Below, in pieces: positions 23,194 through 53,873 of a stretch of 64,000 nt of DNA (position 1 is the stretch's first letter; every line of letters begins with the position of its first letter). The stretch comes from Thermoproteota archaeon (lineage in GTDB: Archaea; Asgardarchaeota; Jordiarchaeia; Jordiarchaeales; Freyrarchaeaceae): positions 77,302-141,301 of the forward strand of contig JAPDJY010000035.1 of the NCBI GenBank assembly GCA_029258835.1, in the 5' to 3' direction. A model generated the notes under the pieces. That model was not told where the DNA came from. It worked only from the letters and a program-made list of their open reading frames with translations, and did no database searches. The position numbers and the translations under genes are program-made.

Positions 23194-23612
23194 TCTCTAT
23201 TCCCTTCTACCTCTTCAATCATTTTCTTGATTTCTTCTAACGTAGTTACTTCACTACTGGTAACTTCCAACGTTGCCTTTACAAGATAGTAATGTTCTCC
23301 CCATGTAACCTGAATGTCCTTTTCGGAGATGGCATTAAACCATGGACCATTCGGCATAAGTGCTAATCCAGGTTTGGTTTCATCGCTTTCATATGCCTTA
23401 ACTACAACGTTCCCATGATCGGTTGTGACCTTAACCTTATCCCCATTTTTCACTCCATTCTTTCCCATGTCTTCCTTGCTTAGAAGGATAACTGCCGTGG
23501 TTTCAACATATCCTTCCATGCCTTTCTCTGCTTTCTCGATCGATTGCTCGACAGAGCGAACTCCACAAATGGTGACCTCAAATTTAGGAGCTAAAAGCCT
23601 GAGTAGCGACAT
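23190..23612 (-). CDS. fwdD: Formylmethanofuran dehydrogenase subunit D (molybdopterin dinucleotide-binding domain)
   Basis: RSVEQ, GDKVKVTTDHGNVVV, PGLALMPNGPWFN; overlaps the fwdA start. Confidence 0.8.
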   Translation of the reverse strand: MSLLRLLAPKFEVTICGVRSVEQSIEKAEKGMEGYVETTAVILLSKEDMGKNGVKNGDKVKVTTDHGNVVVKAYESDETKPGLALMPNGPWFNAISEKDIQVTWGEHYYLVKATLEVTSSEVTTLEEIKKMIEEVEGNRE

Positions 23613-23726
23613 TCTAAGACGCTCCTTTCATTCAGGCTATTTTAGGCAAGCTTAAAATAAAACTTTTACCGCTTTTAATCCTCGATAGTTAAAAGGGCCA
23701 TAATGTTTGCTGGAGGCGGGAGCATT

Positions 23727-24581
23727 GTGAAGGGATGGCTATTCGAAATCTTCTCCTCCTACCAATCCTTACTAAAATAAGGGGTGAAGGGGAGGGTGGA
23801 AGCGTAAAGGGGTCAAATTACGGGAAGCGGACGATATAGGCCATCCGAGGGGCCGTCGACTTATCCGCTTCTCGGGGTGTAACATATGGTTAGGAGAGTT
23901 TGGTAGGCGAGGGTGTGGGTGGTGCGACACCTTAAACGGCGCCAGACGCCCCACGCCGCTCAGCCTAAATCTGAATATTTGAAGATATCAACAGTTGAAG
24001 AAGGCATGTTTCAAGTGAAAAATCCCGTGGAGCCAGGACTAGTTGTAGAATACGTTAAACGTGTCCACTCACCAGATGTTCACGCGATTTCCCTGACAGG
24101 AGGGGAACCATTATTTCAACTAGAGTTCCTCGCTTCAATAATGAAAGCCCTTAAAGGGGAAGGATACAAAACATACTTGGAAACCAACGGTTCAATGCCG
24201 GAACGAATGGATAAAATAGCATTCTTAACAGACTATTGTTGCTGTGATATTAAAGATGAAACGGCAGGTGCAGCAGAAAACTGGAGACGGCTCGTTGAGC
24301 TGGAGCTAAAAACAATAAGTATACTTATAGATAATGGTGTCAGCGTCTTCGCTAAGGTTGTCGTTACTTCGGAGACGAAGCCTGAAAACGTTGAATGGTA
24401 TGCATCAAAGCTTTCAAGGATGGACTGCCCGCTATGTATTCAACCGGTAACGCCTATAAGGAATTATAGGCCGCCTTCACAACGCCAACTCTTCAGCTTC
24501 ACGGAGGCGGCAGCAAAACATCTTGGGAGCGATAATGTGGCCATATCTGTTCAAGTACACAAGTTTTTGGGTATACCTTAA
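23727..24581 (+). CDS. queE: 7-carboxy-7-deazaguanine synthase split by three BHB micro-introns; join(23727..23765,23789..23837,23861..23928,23946..24581), 263 aa
   Basis: GGAGG RBS at 23712-23716 and GTG at 23727. Spliced product MKGWLFEIFSSYQGEGGSVKGSNYGKRTIFIRFSGCNIWLGEFGRRGCGWCDTPHAAQ..., then SLTGGEPL, YLETNG, CDIK, CIQP, VQVHK. Operon with DUF366 and queD. Confidence 0.9.
23766..23788 (+). other. queE intron 1 (23 nt, BHB)
   Basis: Central helix TACC(23760-63)/GGTG(23783-86); bulges AA^T and AA^G; intron stem CCTTA/TAAGG; contains in-frame TAA; splice gives CAA|GGG = Q|G of SYQGEG. Confidence 0.88.
23838..23860 (+). other. queE intron 2 (23 nt, bulge-helix-loop variant)
   Basis: 11-bp exon helix CGGGAAGCGGA/TCCGCTTCTCG; central helix CGAT/GTCG; 5' bulge AT^A; 3' loop AC^TTA; intron stem GGCC/GGCC; splice gives T|TT = Phe of TIFIRFSGCN and removes a TAG. 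Confidence 0.88.
23929..23945 (+). other. queE intron 3 (17 nt, relaxed BHB)
   Basis: Exon helix GGTGTGGG/CCCACGCC; central helix TGCG/CGCC (3 of 4 pairs); bulges AC^A and AG^A; intron stem CC/GG; splice gives GAC|ACG = D|T of CGWCDT and restores frame. Junction could shift by 1-2 nt. Confidence 0.78.
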
Positions 24582-24595
24582 GGGGAGGCACCCAC

Positions 24596-25231
24596 TTGAA
24601 CTTGAAAAACTTGGAAGTAGTGGAACAGGCTCCTTTAACTGTGGCATTAGTTCCCTTTACTCATCATTTTCCATATACCGGAAGGGAAATAGCGCCGCTG
24701 TGGGCTCTGAAGACATTCGGCATACAGGGGGATTCCATAATCGTTTTCCGTGGTCCCCTTAGCGTTTTAGAGTCCGAACTCGTAGACGTGAAAGACCTTG
24801 TCTTTGAAGGAGGAAAAGGACGCCCTGTTATTTCGTCTAAGGATGCCATAAGCTTTATCATAGAACATTTTGATCAGCAACCACCATCTCTACGGCTAAT
24901 GTATCATAGACTTAGGATCATAGCGTTCCTTTTTAAGGAGCTTGCCGAGGAAAAATGCGGCTTAAGGCTTCAACGTGACGGTACAGACACATACTTTAAT
25001 GGAGGAAAACTTAACGTTGGGGTGGCAACAGTTTCCTCGGGATCCGGAAAAATCCATTTTGCAATAAACATTTCCGTTGAGGGAGCGCCTCCCGGAATCA
25101 AAGTAGCAAGCCTCCTAGACTTAGGCGTTAGCGAAGGTGAAGTCGAGTCGTTTGCTGTTTCCCTCGCTAAACGTTACAGGCGTGAGATACTAGACGTTGA
25201 GAGTGACGTTGCGAAATCTAAAACCTTCTAA
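24596..25231 (+). CDS. DUF366 family protein (lipoate-ligase-like; clusters with que genes)
   Basis: FGIQGDSIIVFRG, FIIEHFD, KLNVGVAT, KIHFAINI; lies between queE and queD. Confidence 0.8.
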   Translation: MNLKNLEVVEQAPLTVALVPFTHHFPYTGREIAPLWALKTFGIQGDSIIVFRGPLSVLESELVDVKDLVFEGGKGRPVISSKDAISFIIEHFDQQPPSLRLMYHRLRIIAFLFKELAEEKCGLRLQRDGTDTYFNGGKLNVGVATVSSGSGKIHFAINISVEGAPPGIKVASLLDLGVSEGEVESFAVSLAKRYRREILDVESDVAKSKTF

Positions 25232-25241
25232 GGGTGATAAG

Positions 25242-25703
25242 TTGCCCTACAGGCTTACGGTTGAAAGAGCAGACTTAACGTTTTCAGCTGCCCATTTCCT
25301 CCTCAAACATGAGAAGTGTGCCCGTTTACACGGTCATAACTATAAGGTTAGGGTGGAAGTTGCTTCCGACCTTTTAGATGGAAAACACATGGTGATCGAC
25401 TTCTTTTCCATAAGAGAGCTGGCTAGAAAGGCGTGCGAACCGTTGGATCATCGCGTTTTAATACCAGCTAAGTCTAATGAAATCTCGATTAAAGAATGTG
25501 AAAACGAGGTTGAAGTTGTTCTCACCGACCGGAGGTACGTTTTCCCCAGAAGCGATGTAGCGTTACTACCTTTAGAAGCCACAACTGTAGAAAAAATTGC
25601 TGAATATCTCTATGCGAAGATTAGGGAGAAGCTCCCGGAAGGTTTTAATCTTAAGGTCTCAGTAGAGGAAGCTGAAGGAGCTATAGCAACGTTTGAACTA
25701 TAA
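25242..25703 (+). CDS. queD: 6-carboxy-5,6,7,8-tetrahydropterin synthase (TTG start after GGGTGA RBS)
   Basis: FSAAHF, CARLHGHNY, MVIDF, LDH, TTVEKIA. Confidence 0.88.
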   Translation: MPYRLTVERADLTFSAAHFLLKHEKCARLHGHNYKVRVEVASDLLDGKHMVIDFFSIRELARKACEPLDHRVLIPAKSNEISIKECENEVEVVLTDRRYVFPRSDVALLPLEATTVEKIAEYLYAKIREKLPEGFNLKVSVEEAEGAIATFEL

Positions 25704-53517: not shown

Positions 53518-53873
53518 GGGCGGTGGGTCTAGGCGGGCTGCTAGGGGTAGCCTGACGGAGGGTTTATCCCTCCTGACCGCAAATCCTCTATATGGCGGGC
53601 CGAAAGCCGGCGTGAGGCACCTCCAACCCGCTGTTTTGCCCTTCACGTTAAGGCGATGAAAACTCGTCCCGGAGGGCTGGCGGTGGCCGTCCACTCTCCG
53701 TAGGGAGGGTGTGTTCGGCCTTTACCAGGGGAACCGGCTAGGCCCGGGAGAGCGGTGGATGCCTCGATGGAGCACCCTAACCCTGGACGTTCAGTGCTTC
53801 CGGGAGCGCGGGTTTGAGACCAAACGTGAAGGGGGTAGTGGGAAGGAGTGTCGAGCGCCGGGACCCACCGCCC
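53518..53873 (+). ncRNA. ffs: Archaeal SRP (7S) RNA, intron-containing
   Basis: GC-rich; helix 1 GGGCGGTGGGTC/GACCCACCGCCC; Alu loops TAGGGG/CCTCTA; CGATGA..CTCGTCCC; helix 6 with GTAG tetraloop; helix 8 AGGCCC...GGAGCA. Confidence 0.93.
53751..53768 (+). other. BHB intron (18 nt) in SRP RNA helix 8
   Basis: Central helix CGGG(53745-48)/CTCG(53763-66); bulges AG^A and AT^G; intron stem GCG/TGC; splice yields AGGCCC-GGGA-GGGAGCA. Confidence 0.82.

What the first reader, a model, noticed from the sequence alone, without database searches (positions are those of the whole stretch)
23727..24581. queE mRNA is split by three tRNA-type (bulge-helix-bulge) micro-introns
Seen: the called ORF (23913-24581) lacks the QueE N-terminus, but the missing motifs lie just upstream in three pieces separated by 23-, 23- and 17-nt inserts. 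Each insert shifts frame, and the first two create TAA/TAG stops. Each folds as exon helix / 4-bp central helix / bulges / intron hairpin. Cutting after nt 2 of each bulge gives MKGWLFEIFSSYQ|GEGGSVKGSNYGKRTIF(split codon)IRFSGCNIWLGEFGRRGCGWCD|TPHAAQ..., 792 nt, 263 aa. Known: archaeal EndA/RtcB splice BHB introns in tRNA and rRNA; the established mRNA case is the single cbf5 intron of crenarchaea. Inference: this is a multi-intron archaeal protein gene that an ORF caller would truncate or call a pseudogene. Three junctions all obeying BHB geometry are unlikely to be random decay.
Basis: partly seen in the sequence, partly recalled or inferred. Interest (0 to 1): 0.96.

Follow-up and report, generated by a model that had tools for sequence, protein, structure and literature searches.

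The report
Three tRNA-type micro-introns split queE
The queE gene of this Asgard archaeon is broken by three tiny inserts of the kind normally cut out of tRNAs; ten related species keep all three, so the message is almost certainly spliced, something published so far for only one archaeal protein gene.

Summary
Removing 23766-23788, 23838-23860 and 23929-23945 gives a 792-nt, 263-aa ORF. Its N-terminus aligns without gaps to intron-less QueE proteins.

- All nine related species genomes retrieved (Jordarchaeia/Freyarchaeia, Asgard) carry inserts at the same three codon positions.
- Exon lengths are fixed (39/42, 49, 68 nt). Insert lengths vary (20-26, 18-30, 15-30 nt).
- Exon variation is mostly at third codon positions of the spliced frame (16/11/39 variable columns).
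- The insert hairpins covary.
- The homology-defined junctions fall after the second base of two 3-nt bulges flanking a 4-bp helix. Of 30 introns, 22 have 4/4 central pairs and 8 have 3/4.
- 23 genomes of other archaeal lineages have no inserts.
- The genome has two EndA paralogues and RtcB, and queE is single-copy.
- Elsewhere in this genome, EF-1alpha, aIF2gamma, PCMT and AhcY carry inserts of the same geometry, and so, less securely, do GatE, a PflX-like radical-SAM gene and the SRP RNA. A close relative lacks exactly the 43-nt EF-1alpha insert.

No RNA run was listed, so splicing itself is inferred. This scan has noted the same kind of intron on other Jordarchaeia/Freyarchaeia DNA. Three introns in one gene is the new element here. 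The papers I searched report only cbf5.

The parts
23712..23716 (+). GGAGG, a likely ribosome-binding site 10 nt before the GTG start
   Evidence: Read. Its role is inferred and was not tested.
23727..23765 (+). queE exon 1 (GTG start, 13 codons, ends ...SSYQ)
   Evidence: The start is ATG, GTG or TTG at the same place in 9 relatives, and the exon length is 39/42 nt in all of them.
23766..23788 (+). Intron 1, 23 nt. Central helix 23760-23763 (UACC) with 23783-23786 (GGUG). Bulges 23764-23766 (AAU) and 23787-23789 (AAG). Inner hairpin 23767-23771 with 23778-23782. In-frame TAA at 23778-23780.
   Evidence: Covariation: the inner stem has compensatory changes at 5 of 5 pairs and is 100% paired; the central helix is 100% paired in 10 genomes.
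23789..23837 (+). queE exon 2 (49 nt, GEGGSVKGSNYGKRTI plus the first base of the Phe codon)
   Evidence: The length is 49 nt in all 10 genomes.
23838..23860 (+). Intron 2, 23 nt, phase 1. Central helix 23832-23835 (CGAU) with 23855-23858 (GUCG). Bulges 23836-23838 (AUA) and 23859-23861 (ACU). Inner hairpin GGCC/GGCC. The exon-exon helix AAGCGGA/UCCGCUU is offset by 2 extra unpaired bases on the 3' side. Retention creates TAG at 23837-23839.
   Evidence: Covariation: the inner stem is 98% paired with 3 pairs changed on both sides. The junction is fixed without ambiguity by the conserved Phe codon.
23861..23928 (+). queE exon 3 (68 nt; carries the radical-SAM cysteines as CX11CX2C, ending ...GCGWCD)
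   Evidence: The length is 68 nt in all 10 genomes.
23929..23945 (+). Intron 3, 17 nt, relaxed BHB. Central helix 23923-23926 (UGCG) with 23940-23943 (CGCC), 3 of 4 pairs. Bulges 23927-23929 (ACA) and 23944-23946 (AGA). Inner stem only 2 bp. Outer exon helix GUGGG.../...CCCAC. The cut can slide 1-2 nt to the right without changing the product.
   Evidence: Eight of 10 genomes have 4/4 central pairs here. The length is 15-30 nt across genomes.
23946..24581 (+). queE exon 4 (211 codons plus stop), radical-SAM core
   Evidence: Pfam Radical_SAM 35.1 bits against a cut-off of 29.5. 525 homologues, the closest ones named QueE by NCBI.
24596..25231 (+). DUF366 gene directly downstream, uninterrupted
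   Evidence: Pfam PF04017, E = 2.6e-51.
25197..25703 (+). queD (6-carboxytetrahydropterin synthase, PTPS family), uninterrupted and overlapping the end of DUF366
   Evidence: Pfam PF01242, E = 3e-24.

Best explanation
queE, the single gene here for 7-carboxy-7-deazaguanine synthase (the preQ0/archaeosine pathway), is transcribed with three micro-introns of 23, 23 and 17 nt in its first 220 nt.

Proposed mechanism:
1. At each site the last six exon bases supply one strand of a 4-bp helix plus two bulge bases.
2. The intron supplies the third bulge base, usually a small hairpin, the complementary 4 bases and two more bulge bases.
3. The next exon starts with the third base of the second bulge. 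This is the bulge-helix-bulge shape.
4. The two-subunit splicing endonuclease (EndA) cuts after the second base of each bulge.
5. RtcB joins the exons.
6. The mature mRNA encodes a normal 263-aa QueE.

Shown here: the inserts, their geometry, their conservation and covariation in ten species, selection on the exons in the spliced frame, and the presence of the enzymes. Inferred: that EndA and RtcB do the cutting and joining, and that splicing precedes translation.
For: 1. Excision restores a 263-aa ORF. Its N-terminus aligns without gaps across all three junctions to intron-less QueE from Helarchaeota, Heimdallarchaeum, Thermococcus and Hydrothermarchaeales. The spliced 75-aa N-terminus of relative L008 hits 66 full-length QueE proteins, with E down to 1e-25 and mostly 92-99% coverage.
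2. All 9 Jordarchaeia/Freyarchaeia species genomes found carry inserts at the same three codon positions. Exon lengths are invariant and insert lengths are 20-26, 18-30 and 15-30 nt.
3. Variable columns in exons 1-3 fall 16/11/39 by codon position of the spliced frame. Between the window and L005, 21 differing codons are synonymous and 13 are not.
4. Covariation: the intron 1 hairpin has compensatory changes at 5 of 5 pairs and is 100% paired. The intron 2 hairpin is 98% paired with 3 pairs changed on both sides. Sliding the partners by 1-3 columns drops pairing to 25-68%.
5. The cut rule holds in all 30 introns: 22 have 4/4 and 8 have 3/4 central pairs, and 60 of 60 bulges begin with A.
6. 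The N-terminus is contiguous in 23 other archaeal genomes.
7. There are two EndA paralogues, one matching the N-terminal half and one the C-terminal half of the two-repeat enzyme profile, plus an intact RtcB. [quoted passage not shown]
8. queE is single-copy. QueC, ArcTGT and QueD are intact.
9. The same geometry interrupts EF-1alpha and aIF2gamma inside the P-loop.
10. It also interrupts PCMT, where Pfam positions 2-59 and 61-208 lie on either side of a 25-nt insert, and AhcY, where the upstream piece matches the AdoHcyase profile to position 216 and the downstream piece starts the NAD-binding domain at position 1. For GatE and a PflX-like radical-SAM gene the Pfam support is partial.
11. A relative with 89% identical EF-1alpha lacks exactly the predicted 43 nt.
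12. The insert-bearing DNA is identical in contigs of four public runs.
Against: - No RNA evidence. No RNA run holding this stretch was listed, so spliced transcripts, circular introns and the order of splicing are unobserved.
- Intron 3 of this genome deviates from the strict motif (U-C mismatch, 2-bp inner stem), and its MFE fold prefers another register.
- Intron 2 has a 5-nt rather than 3-nt unpaired stretch on the 3' side if the long exon helix forms.
- In some relatives intron 3 is a multiple of three without a stop (15 nt in L003, 27 nt in L005). Those genes could in principle be read through at that site.
- How tiny exons (13-23 codons) escape translation of the unspliced message is unexplained, given that transcription and translation are thought to be coupled in archaea.
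Confidence: 0.85

Rival explanations
1. The inserts are removed from the RNA, but by something other than EndA/RtcB. Candidates are another endonuclease-ligase pair, or a guide-dependent process that merely shares the helix-bulge look.
For: EndA action is inferred from geometry only. Intron 3 is relaxed. All 60 bulges start with A, a sequence preference that I do not know to be a general EndA requirement.
Against: The cut positions follow the EndA rule in 30 of 30 introns. The same rule fits the SRP RNA insert in this window. tRNA genes of this genome are heavily interrupted, and this is published for the group (PMC11291895). EndA x2 and RtcB are present and intact.
Confidence: 0.07
2. Recoding at the ribosome: translational bypassing (hopping, as in T4 gene 60) or serial frameshifts carry the ribosome over unspliced inserts.
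For: The inserts are short, two carry a stop right after the 'take-off' point, and each has a hairpin. These features are also seen at the gene 60 gap (from my own knowledge).
Against: There are no matching take-off and landing codons: CAA vs GAA at insert 1, GAC vs CAG at insert 3, and insert 2 splits a codon. Three consecutive events within 220 nt would be very inefficient. Bypassing does not explain the 4-bp helix placed exactly 2 nt before both junctions or its covariation. It also does not explain the same geometry in a non-coding SRP RNA.
Confidence: 0.03
3. queE is a decaying pseudogene, or the short pieces are no longer used and only the 222-aa C-terminal ORF is made.
For: Gene callers report only the truncated ORF. 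On its own the gene looks broken.
Against: The three exons keep exact lengths and a 16/11/39 codon-position pattern across ten species whose exon-4 protein is only 47-66% identical to the window's. Decay would not keep three indels at identical codons with compensatory hairpin changes. The truncated ORF lacks all three radical-SAM cysteines and the QGEG motif. The gene is single-copy while QueC, QueD and ArcTGT are intact.
Confidence: 0.03
4. Assembly or sequencing artefact.
For: The source is a metagenome-assembled genome of 91 contigs with 6% estimated contamination.
Against: The sequence is identical in contigs of four runs. Homologous inserts occur in nine independently assembled species genomes, including a closed chromosome, CP147778.1.
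Confidence: 0.01

Closest known systems
BHB intron in the cbf5 pre-mRNA of Crenarchaeota (Watanabe 2002; Yoshinari 2006; Yokobori 2009, PMC2738675)
   Same: A short intron inside a protein-coding sequence, folding as bulge-helix-bulge. It is removed by the splicing endonuclease of a lineage with a two-subunit enzyme. The gene is mis-called by ORF finders.
   Different: cbf5 carries one intron and is an RNA-modification gene of Desulfurococcales and Sulfolobales. Here there are three introns within 220 nt of one metabolic gene, in an Asgard lineage. PMC2738675 states that splicing had not been confirmed for any archaeal gene other than cbf5.
Non-canonical and multiple tRNA introns of Freyarchaeia/Atabeyarchaeia and Thermoproteales (PMC11291895; bioRxiv 10.64898/2026.10.13.758758)
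   Same: Same lineage, same motif and same enzymes. Several introns occur per gene at varied positions. In this genome ARAGORN finds only 8 uninterrupted tRNA genes.
   Different: Those reports concern tRNA genes only, and neither mentions mRNA. In an mRNA there is no tRNA body to help recognition, and the junction must also keep the reading frame.
HAC1/XBP1 unconventional mRNA splicing in eukaryotes (Ire1 endonuclease plus tRNA ligase/RtcB); from my own knowledge
   Same: Protein-only cutting of an mRNA at paired stem-loop sites, followed by joining with the tRNA ligase. Removal changes the reading frame.
   Different: The endonuclease (Ire1) and the recognition motif differ. That event is regulated by stress and is a single event. 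No regulation is shown here.
Translational bypassing of the 50-nt gap in phage T4 gene 60; from my own knowledge
   Same: A short non-coding gap inside a coding sequence, with a stop and a hairpin at its start.
   Different: Bypassing needs matching take-off and landing codons. These are absent here, and one insert splits a codon.

Membership tests
Archaeal BHB (splicing-endonuclease) intron | [quoted passage not shown] | tested here: met
   Introns 1 and 2 have 4/4 central pairs and 3-nt bulges. Intron 3 has 3/4 pairs (U-C) in this genome but 4/4 in 8 of 10 genomes. Overall 22 of 30 introns have 4/4 pairs and the rest 3/4.
Archaeal BHB (splicing-endonuclease) intron | Cuts after the second base of each bulge give the functional junction | tested here: met
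   Junctions defined independently by protein homology coincide with the rule at all three sites in all 10 genomes. Intron 2 is fixed without ambiguity by the conserved Phe codon. Introns 1 and 3 allow a 2-nt slide that gives the same product.
Archaeal BHB (splicing-endonuclease) intron | Flanking helices: an exon-exon outer helix and an intron inner hairpin (hBHBh') | tested here: inconclusive
   Intron 1 has both (outer 3 bp, inner 5 bp). Intron 2 has an inner stem of 4 bp and an outer helix of 7 bp, but the outer helix is offset by 2 extra unpaired bases. Intron 3 has an outer helix with mismatches and an inner stem of 2 bp. These are relaxed forms.
Archaeal BHB (splicing-endonuclease) intron | Structure maintained by compensatory change in relatives | tested here: met
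   Intron 1 inner stem: 5 of 5 pairs changed on both sides, 100% paired. Intron 2 inner stem: 3 pairs changed on both sides, 98% paired. No shuffle of 500 reached the observed percentage paired, and slid controls reached 25-68%.
Archaeal BHB (splicing-endonuclease) intron | The genome encodes EndA and the RtcB ligase | tested here: met
   EndA paralogues lie at G000:C1:12233-12481 (190-aa ORF) and C6:39796-40056 (308-aa ORF). They match the C-terminal and N-terminal halves of the two-repeat EndA profile. RtcB scores 606.9 bits and has no stops.
Archaeal BHB (splicing-endonuclease) intron | Spliced RNA, excised or circular intron, or in vitro cleavage observed | not testable with these tools
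   No RNA run was listed for this stretch. No spliced-form protein was found in the protein collection.
QueE (7-carboxy-7-deazaguanine synthase, radical SAM) | Three-cysteine cluster motif and the N-terminal E-I/V-F-x-S-x-Q-G-E-G motif | tested here: met
   Both are present only in the spliced product: EIFSSYQGEGG spans the intron 1 junction, and CX11CX2C lies in exon 3. The same spacing occurs in the Heimdallarchaeum and Hydrothermarchaeales homologues.
QueE (7-carboxy-7-deazaguanine synthase, radical SAM) | Match to curated family models | tested here: inconclusive
   Exon 4 alone passes Pfam Radical_SAM (35.1 against 29.5). It stays far below every NCBIfam QueE cut-off, the best being 32 bits against 260. 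The whole spliced protein could not be submitted. The closest homologues are named QueE by NCBI.
QueE (7-carboxy-7-deazaguanine synthase, radical SAM) | Pathway context | tested here: met
   queD lies 600 nt downstream in the same direction. QueC (181.6 bits) and archaeal TGT (274.4 bits) are intact elsewhere in the genome.
Translational bypass (T4 gene 60 type) | Identical take-off and landing codons flanking the gap | tested here: not met
   CAA vs GAA at insert 1, a split codon at insert 2, and GAC vs CAG at insert 3.

The most novel reading that the evidence does not exclude
In Jordarchaeia/Freyarchaeia, tRNA-type introns are a routine feature of protein-coding genes, including essential single-copy ones (EF-1alpha and aIF2gamma in the P-loop, GatE, AhcY, PCMT, queE with three). 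A prokaryotic relative of the eukaryotic ancestor would then have to splice many mRNAs before translating them. Introns would be gained and lost between close relatives, and possibly targeted to similar exon sequences: EF-1alpha and aIF2gamma are hit at the same site with the same CGGC/GCCG helix.
Probability: 0.7. Interest if true: 0.92.

Novelty: new variant of a known kind. Interest (0 to 1): 0.86.

Why it matters
Endonuclease-type splicing of an archaeal mRNA is published for one gene (cbf5), with one intron, in Crenarchaeota. This case has three such introns in one ordinary metabolic gene, kept across a whole Asgard class. Other genes of the same genome, including core translation factors, carry the same kind of insert.

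If RNA data confirm it, three things follow:
- Messages in this lineage must be processed before ribosomes read them. That makes the old question of how intron-bearing genes coexist with coupled transcription and translation testable in a relative of eukaryotes.
- The exon half of the motif constrains codon choice. EF-1alpha uses CAC GGC in the intron-bearing allele and CAT GGG in the intron-less one.
- Gene calls and metabolic reconstructions for these MAGs are systematically wrong. Public records list truncated, 'partial' or wrong-frame proteins for queE and EF-1alpha.

Tried and rejected
- RNA evidence: no RNA holder was listed for 23300-25300 or 23700-24600. Reads were laid on DNA contigs.
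- Spliced or intron-less queE of this clade in the protein collection: none was found. The best full-length hit to the spliced N-terminus is 74% identical and comes from other lineages.
- ORF-only genome census of BHB-interrupted genes: it had no power. Chance motifs that span ordinary gene boundaries pass the 'open on both sides' test as often with wrong boundaries as with right ones (for example 743 against 649-721). Requiring an exon-exon helix also lost true cases such as EF-1alpha and aIF2gamma. Only the class with A-first bulges, an inner stem of at least 4 bp and at least 60 open codons on each side showed an excess (49 against 36-38). I give no genome-wide count.
- Two candidates from that scan (C12:30699-30722 and C3:53470-53491, a TIP49-like gene) were left unresolved.
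- NCBIfam on exon 4 alone is uninformative for QueE subfamily assignment.
- The MAFFT alignment of the intron 3 region (A4) misaligned the two clades, so intron 3 was tabulated by script instead.
- ARAGORN on the window found no tRNA.
- Another first-stage note suggested that all three introns being 3n+2 forms an 'AND gate'. This does not generalise: relatives have introns of 15, 18, 21, 24, 27 and 30 nt.

Full report
**What is in the sequence.**
The only long ORF at the site is 23913-24581 (222 aa). Its first residues are out-of-frame readings of upstream coding sequence. Joining 23727-23765, 23789-23837, 23861-23928 and 23946-24581 gives 792 nt in one frame and a 263-aa protein. The three removed pieces are 23, 23 and 17 nt.

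Retaining intron 1 gives an in-frame TAA at 23778-23780. Retaining intron 2 creates TAG at 23837-23839. Retaining intron 3 shifts the frame to a TGA 18 codons later.

**Geometry.**
Write C for the 4 exon bases that end 2 nt before the 5' junction, and C' for the 4 intron bases that end 2 nt before the 3' junction.

| Intron | C / C' | Bulges | Inner stem |
|---|---|---|---|
| 1 | UACC / GGUG | AAU, AAG | 5 bp |
| 2 | CGAU / GUCG | AUA, ACU | 4 bp |
| 3 | UGCG / CGCC (U-C mismatch) | ACA, AGA | 2 bp |

This is the bulge-helix-bulge arrangement, with cuts after the second base of each bulge. Introns 1 and 2 are canonical in the core. Intron 2 has two extra unpaired bases before its 7-bp exon helix. 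Intron 3 is relaxed, and its MFE fold prefers a shifted 6-bp helix. In this genome, a fixed position and length meets '4 central pairs plus an inner stem of at least 3 bp' at about 5e-4.

**Who it is.**
The closest homologues of exon 4 (61-67% identity) are from Jordarchaeales, Jordarchaeum and 'Freyarchaeota' MAGs. The closest EF-1alpha (89-91%) is from the same groups. The genome held for the window has 2.72 Mb in 91 contigs and is 94.7% complete.

**Comparative test.**
A scan of one genome per species returned nine Jordarchaeia/Freyarchaeia loci, L002-L010.
- All nine carry inserts at the same three codon positions.
- Exon lengths are invariant (39 or 42, 49, 68 nt). Intron lengths are 20-26, 18-30 and 15-30 nt.
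- After rule-based excision, all ten proteins align without gaps across the three junctions to intron-less QueE of Helarchaeota, Heimdallarchaeum, Thermococcus and Hydrothermarchaeales.
- In 23 other archaeal genomes the same N-terminus is encoded contiguously.
- The spliced 75-aa N-terminus of L008 finds 66 full-length QueE proteins at E down to 1e-25, mostly with 92-99% coverage.

**Selection.**
Across the ten genomes, variable columns in exons 1-3 number 16, 11 and 39 at codon positions 1, 2 and 3 of the spliced frame. Synonymous codon differences outnumber non-synonymous ones, for example 21 against 13 between the window and L005. The 13-, 16- and 23-codon pieces are therefore translated in the frame that only splicing creates. 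This excludes a pseudogene.

**Covariation.**
The intron 1 inner stem reads CCUUA/UAAGG, CUUCC/GGAAG, UCCCCC/GGGGGA or UCCC/GGGA in different genomes. All five pairs change on both sides and 100% of cells pair, and the central helix is 100% paired. The intron 2 inner stem is 98% paired, with three pairs changed on both sides. Sliding the partners by 1-3 columns drops pairing to 25-68%. Of 30 introns, 22 have 4/4 central pairs and 8 have 3/4. All 60 bulges begin with A.

**Machinery and need.**
The genome has two EndA paralogues.
- The 190-aa one aligns to the C-terminal half of the two-repeat EndA profile.
- The 308-aa one aligns to the N-terminal half.

This fits a two-subunit enzyme. [quoted passage not shown] RtcB is intact. 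queE is single-copy. queD lies just downstream, and QueC and archaeal TGT are intact.

**The same thing elsewhere in this genome.**
- EF-1alpha reads ...GHVDHGK|ST... with a 43-nt insert: CGGC AA|U, a 10-bp hairpin, then GCCG AA|G.
- aIF2gamma has a 30-nt insert, carrying a TGA, at the same P-loop position with the same central helix.
- My own motif scan, made independently of earlier notes, turned up four more cases:
  - PCMT: 25 nt, with Pfam positions 2-59 and 61-208 on either side.
  - AhcY: 23 nt, with the AdoHcyase match ending at profile position 216 just before the insert and the NAD-binding domain starting at position 1 just after it.
  - GatE: 30 nt. Support is partial: only profile positions 2-24 match upstream, about 54 residues before the junction, and 47-275 match downstream.
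  - A PflX-like radical-SAM gene: 27 nt. Only the downstream piece has a Pfam match; the restored SGT-I-FF motif is recognised from my own knowledge.
- A relative with 89% identical EF-1alpha, on an 11,977-bp metagenome contig, lacks exactly the predicted 43 nt. It uses CAT GGG where the intron-bearing allele has CAC GGC.
- The SRP RNA in this window (53521-53870) has an 18-nt insert of the same geometry in the helix-8 loop.
- ARAGORN finds only 8 uninterrupted tRNA genes in the whole genome. This agrees with the published 92-95% intron-bearing tRNA genes of Freyarchaeia and Atabeyarchaeia (PMC11291895).

**Artefact check.**
Contigs from four public DNA runs carry the insert-bearing sequence with no differences and no joined form. 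X1 and X2 cover the whole stretch, X4 reaches 23994, and X3 stops at 23940, inside insert 3.

**What is not shown.**
No RNA library holding this stretch was listed, so splicing, its enzymes and its timing are inferred. Earlier notes of this scan describe the same kind of intron in other Jordarchaeia/Freyarchaeia genomes, and one reports an RNA contig lacking the intron. I did not check those and do not count them as evidence.

**Literature.**
In the library searched, endonuclease-type splicing of an archaeal coding sequence is reported only for cbf5. PMC2738675 states that no other gene was confirmed. The two papers on Asgard tRNA introns do not mention mRNA.

**Verdict.**
The mechanism is the known BHB one. 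The new elements are three introns in one metabolic gene, conservation across a class of Asgard archaea, and membership in what looks like a genome-wide set.

Noticed in passing
window 53521-53870 (insert 53751-53768): The SRP RNA (Rfam RF01857, 145.6 bits) has an 18-nt insert in the helix-8 loop with BHB geometry (CGGG AG|A ... CUCG AU|G). Excision restores the consensus length of the loop. A further insert of about 20 nt sits in the 5' domain.
   Followed up: partly
G000:C27:28832-28874 and about C27:26100 (minus strand), outside the window: EF-1alpha (43 nt) and aIF2gamma (30 nt, with a TGA) are both interrupted at the same P-loop position (GHVDHGK|S/T), with the same CGGC/GCCG central helix. 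This could be parallel insertion at similar exon sequence or an old shared site.
   Followed up: partly
L099:1501-1600 compared with G000:C27: A relative with 89% identical EF-1alpha lacks exactly the 43-nt insert. The intron-less allele reads CAT GGG where the intron-bearing one reads CAC GGC, so the exon strand of the central helix is kept by synonymous codon choice.
   Followed up: yes
G000:C8:8772-8796; C4:24354-24376; C8:63575-63604; C1:136638-136664: Four more protein genes (PCMT, AhcY, GatE, a PflX-like radical-SAM gene) carry 23-30-nt inserts of the same geometry. For PCMT and AhcY, Pfam matches run contiguously across the junction. For GatE and the radical-SAM gene the Pfam support is only partial.
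   Followed up: partly
queE introns in the window and L002-L010, plus the other introns above: Every bulge begins with A: 60 of 60 in the queE set, and also in the seven other inserts inspected. This may be a sequence preference of this lineage's endonuclease.
   Followed up: no
whole genome G000: ARAGORN finds only 8 uninterrupted tRNA genes, and 23 when introns are allowed, in a 95%-complete genome. Most tRNA genes are presumably too interrupted for the caller.
   Followed up: no
public protein records for relatives (P0002, P0003, P0016, P0171, P0173, P0189): Database entries for queE and EF-1alpha of this clade are truncated, marked 'partial', or carry wrong-frame N-termini. In one case a 15-nt intron is read through as SKKRK.
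   Followed up: partly
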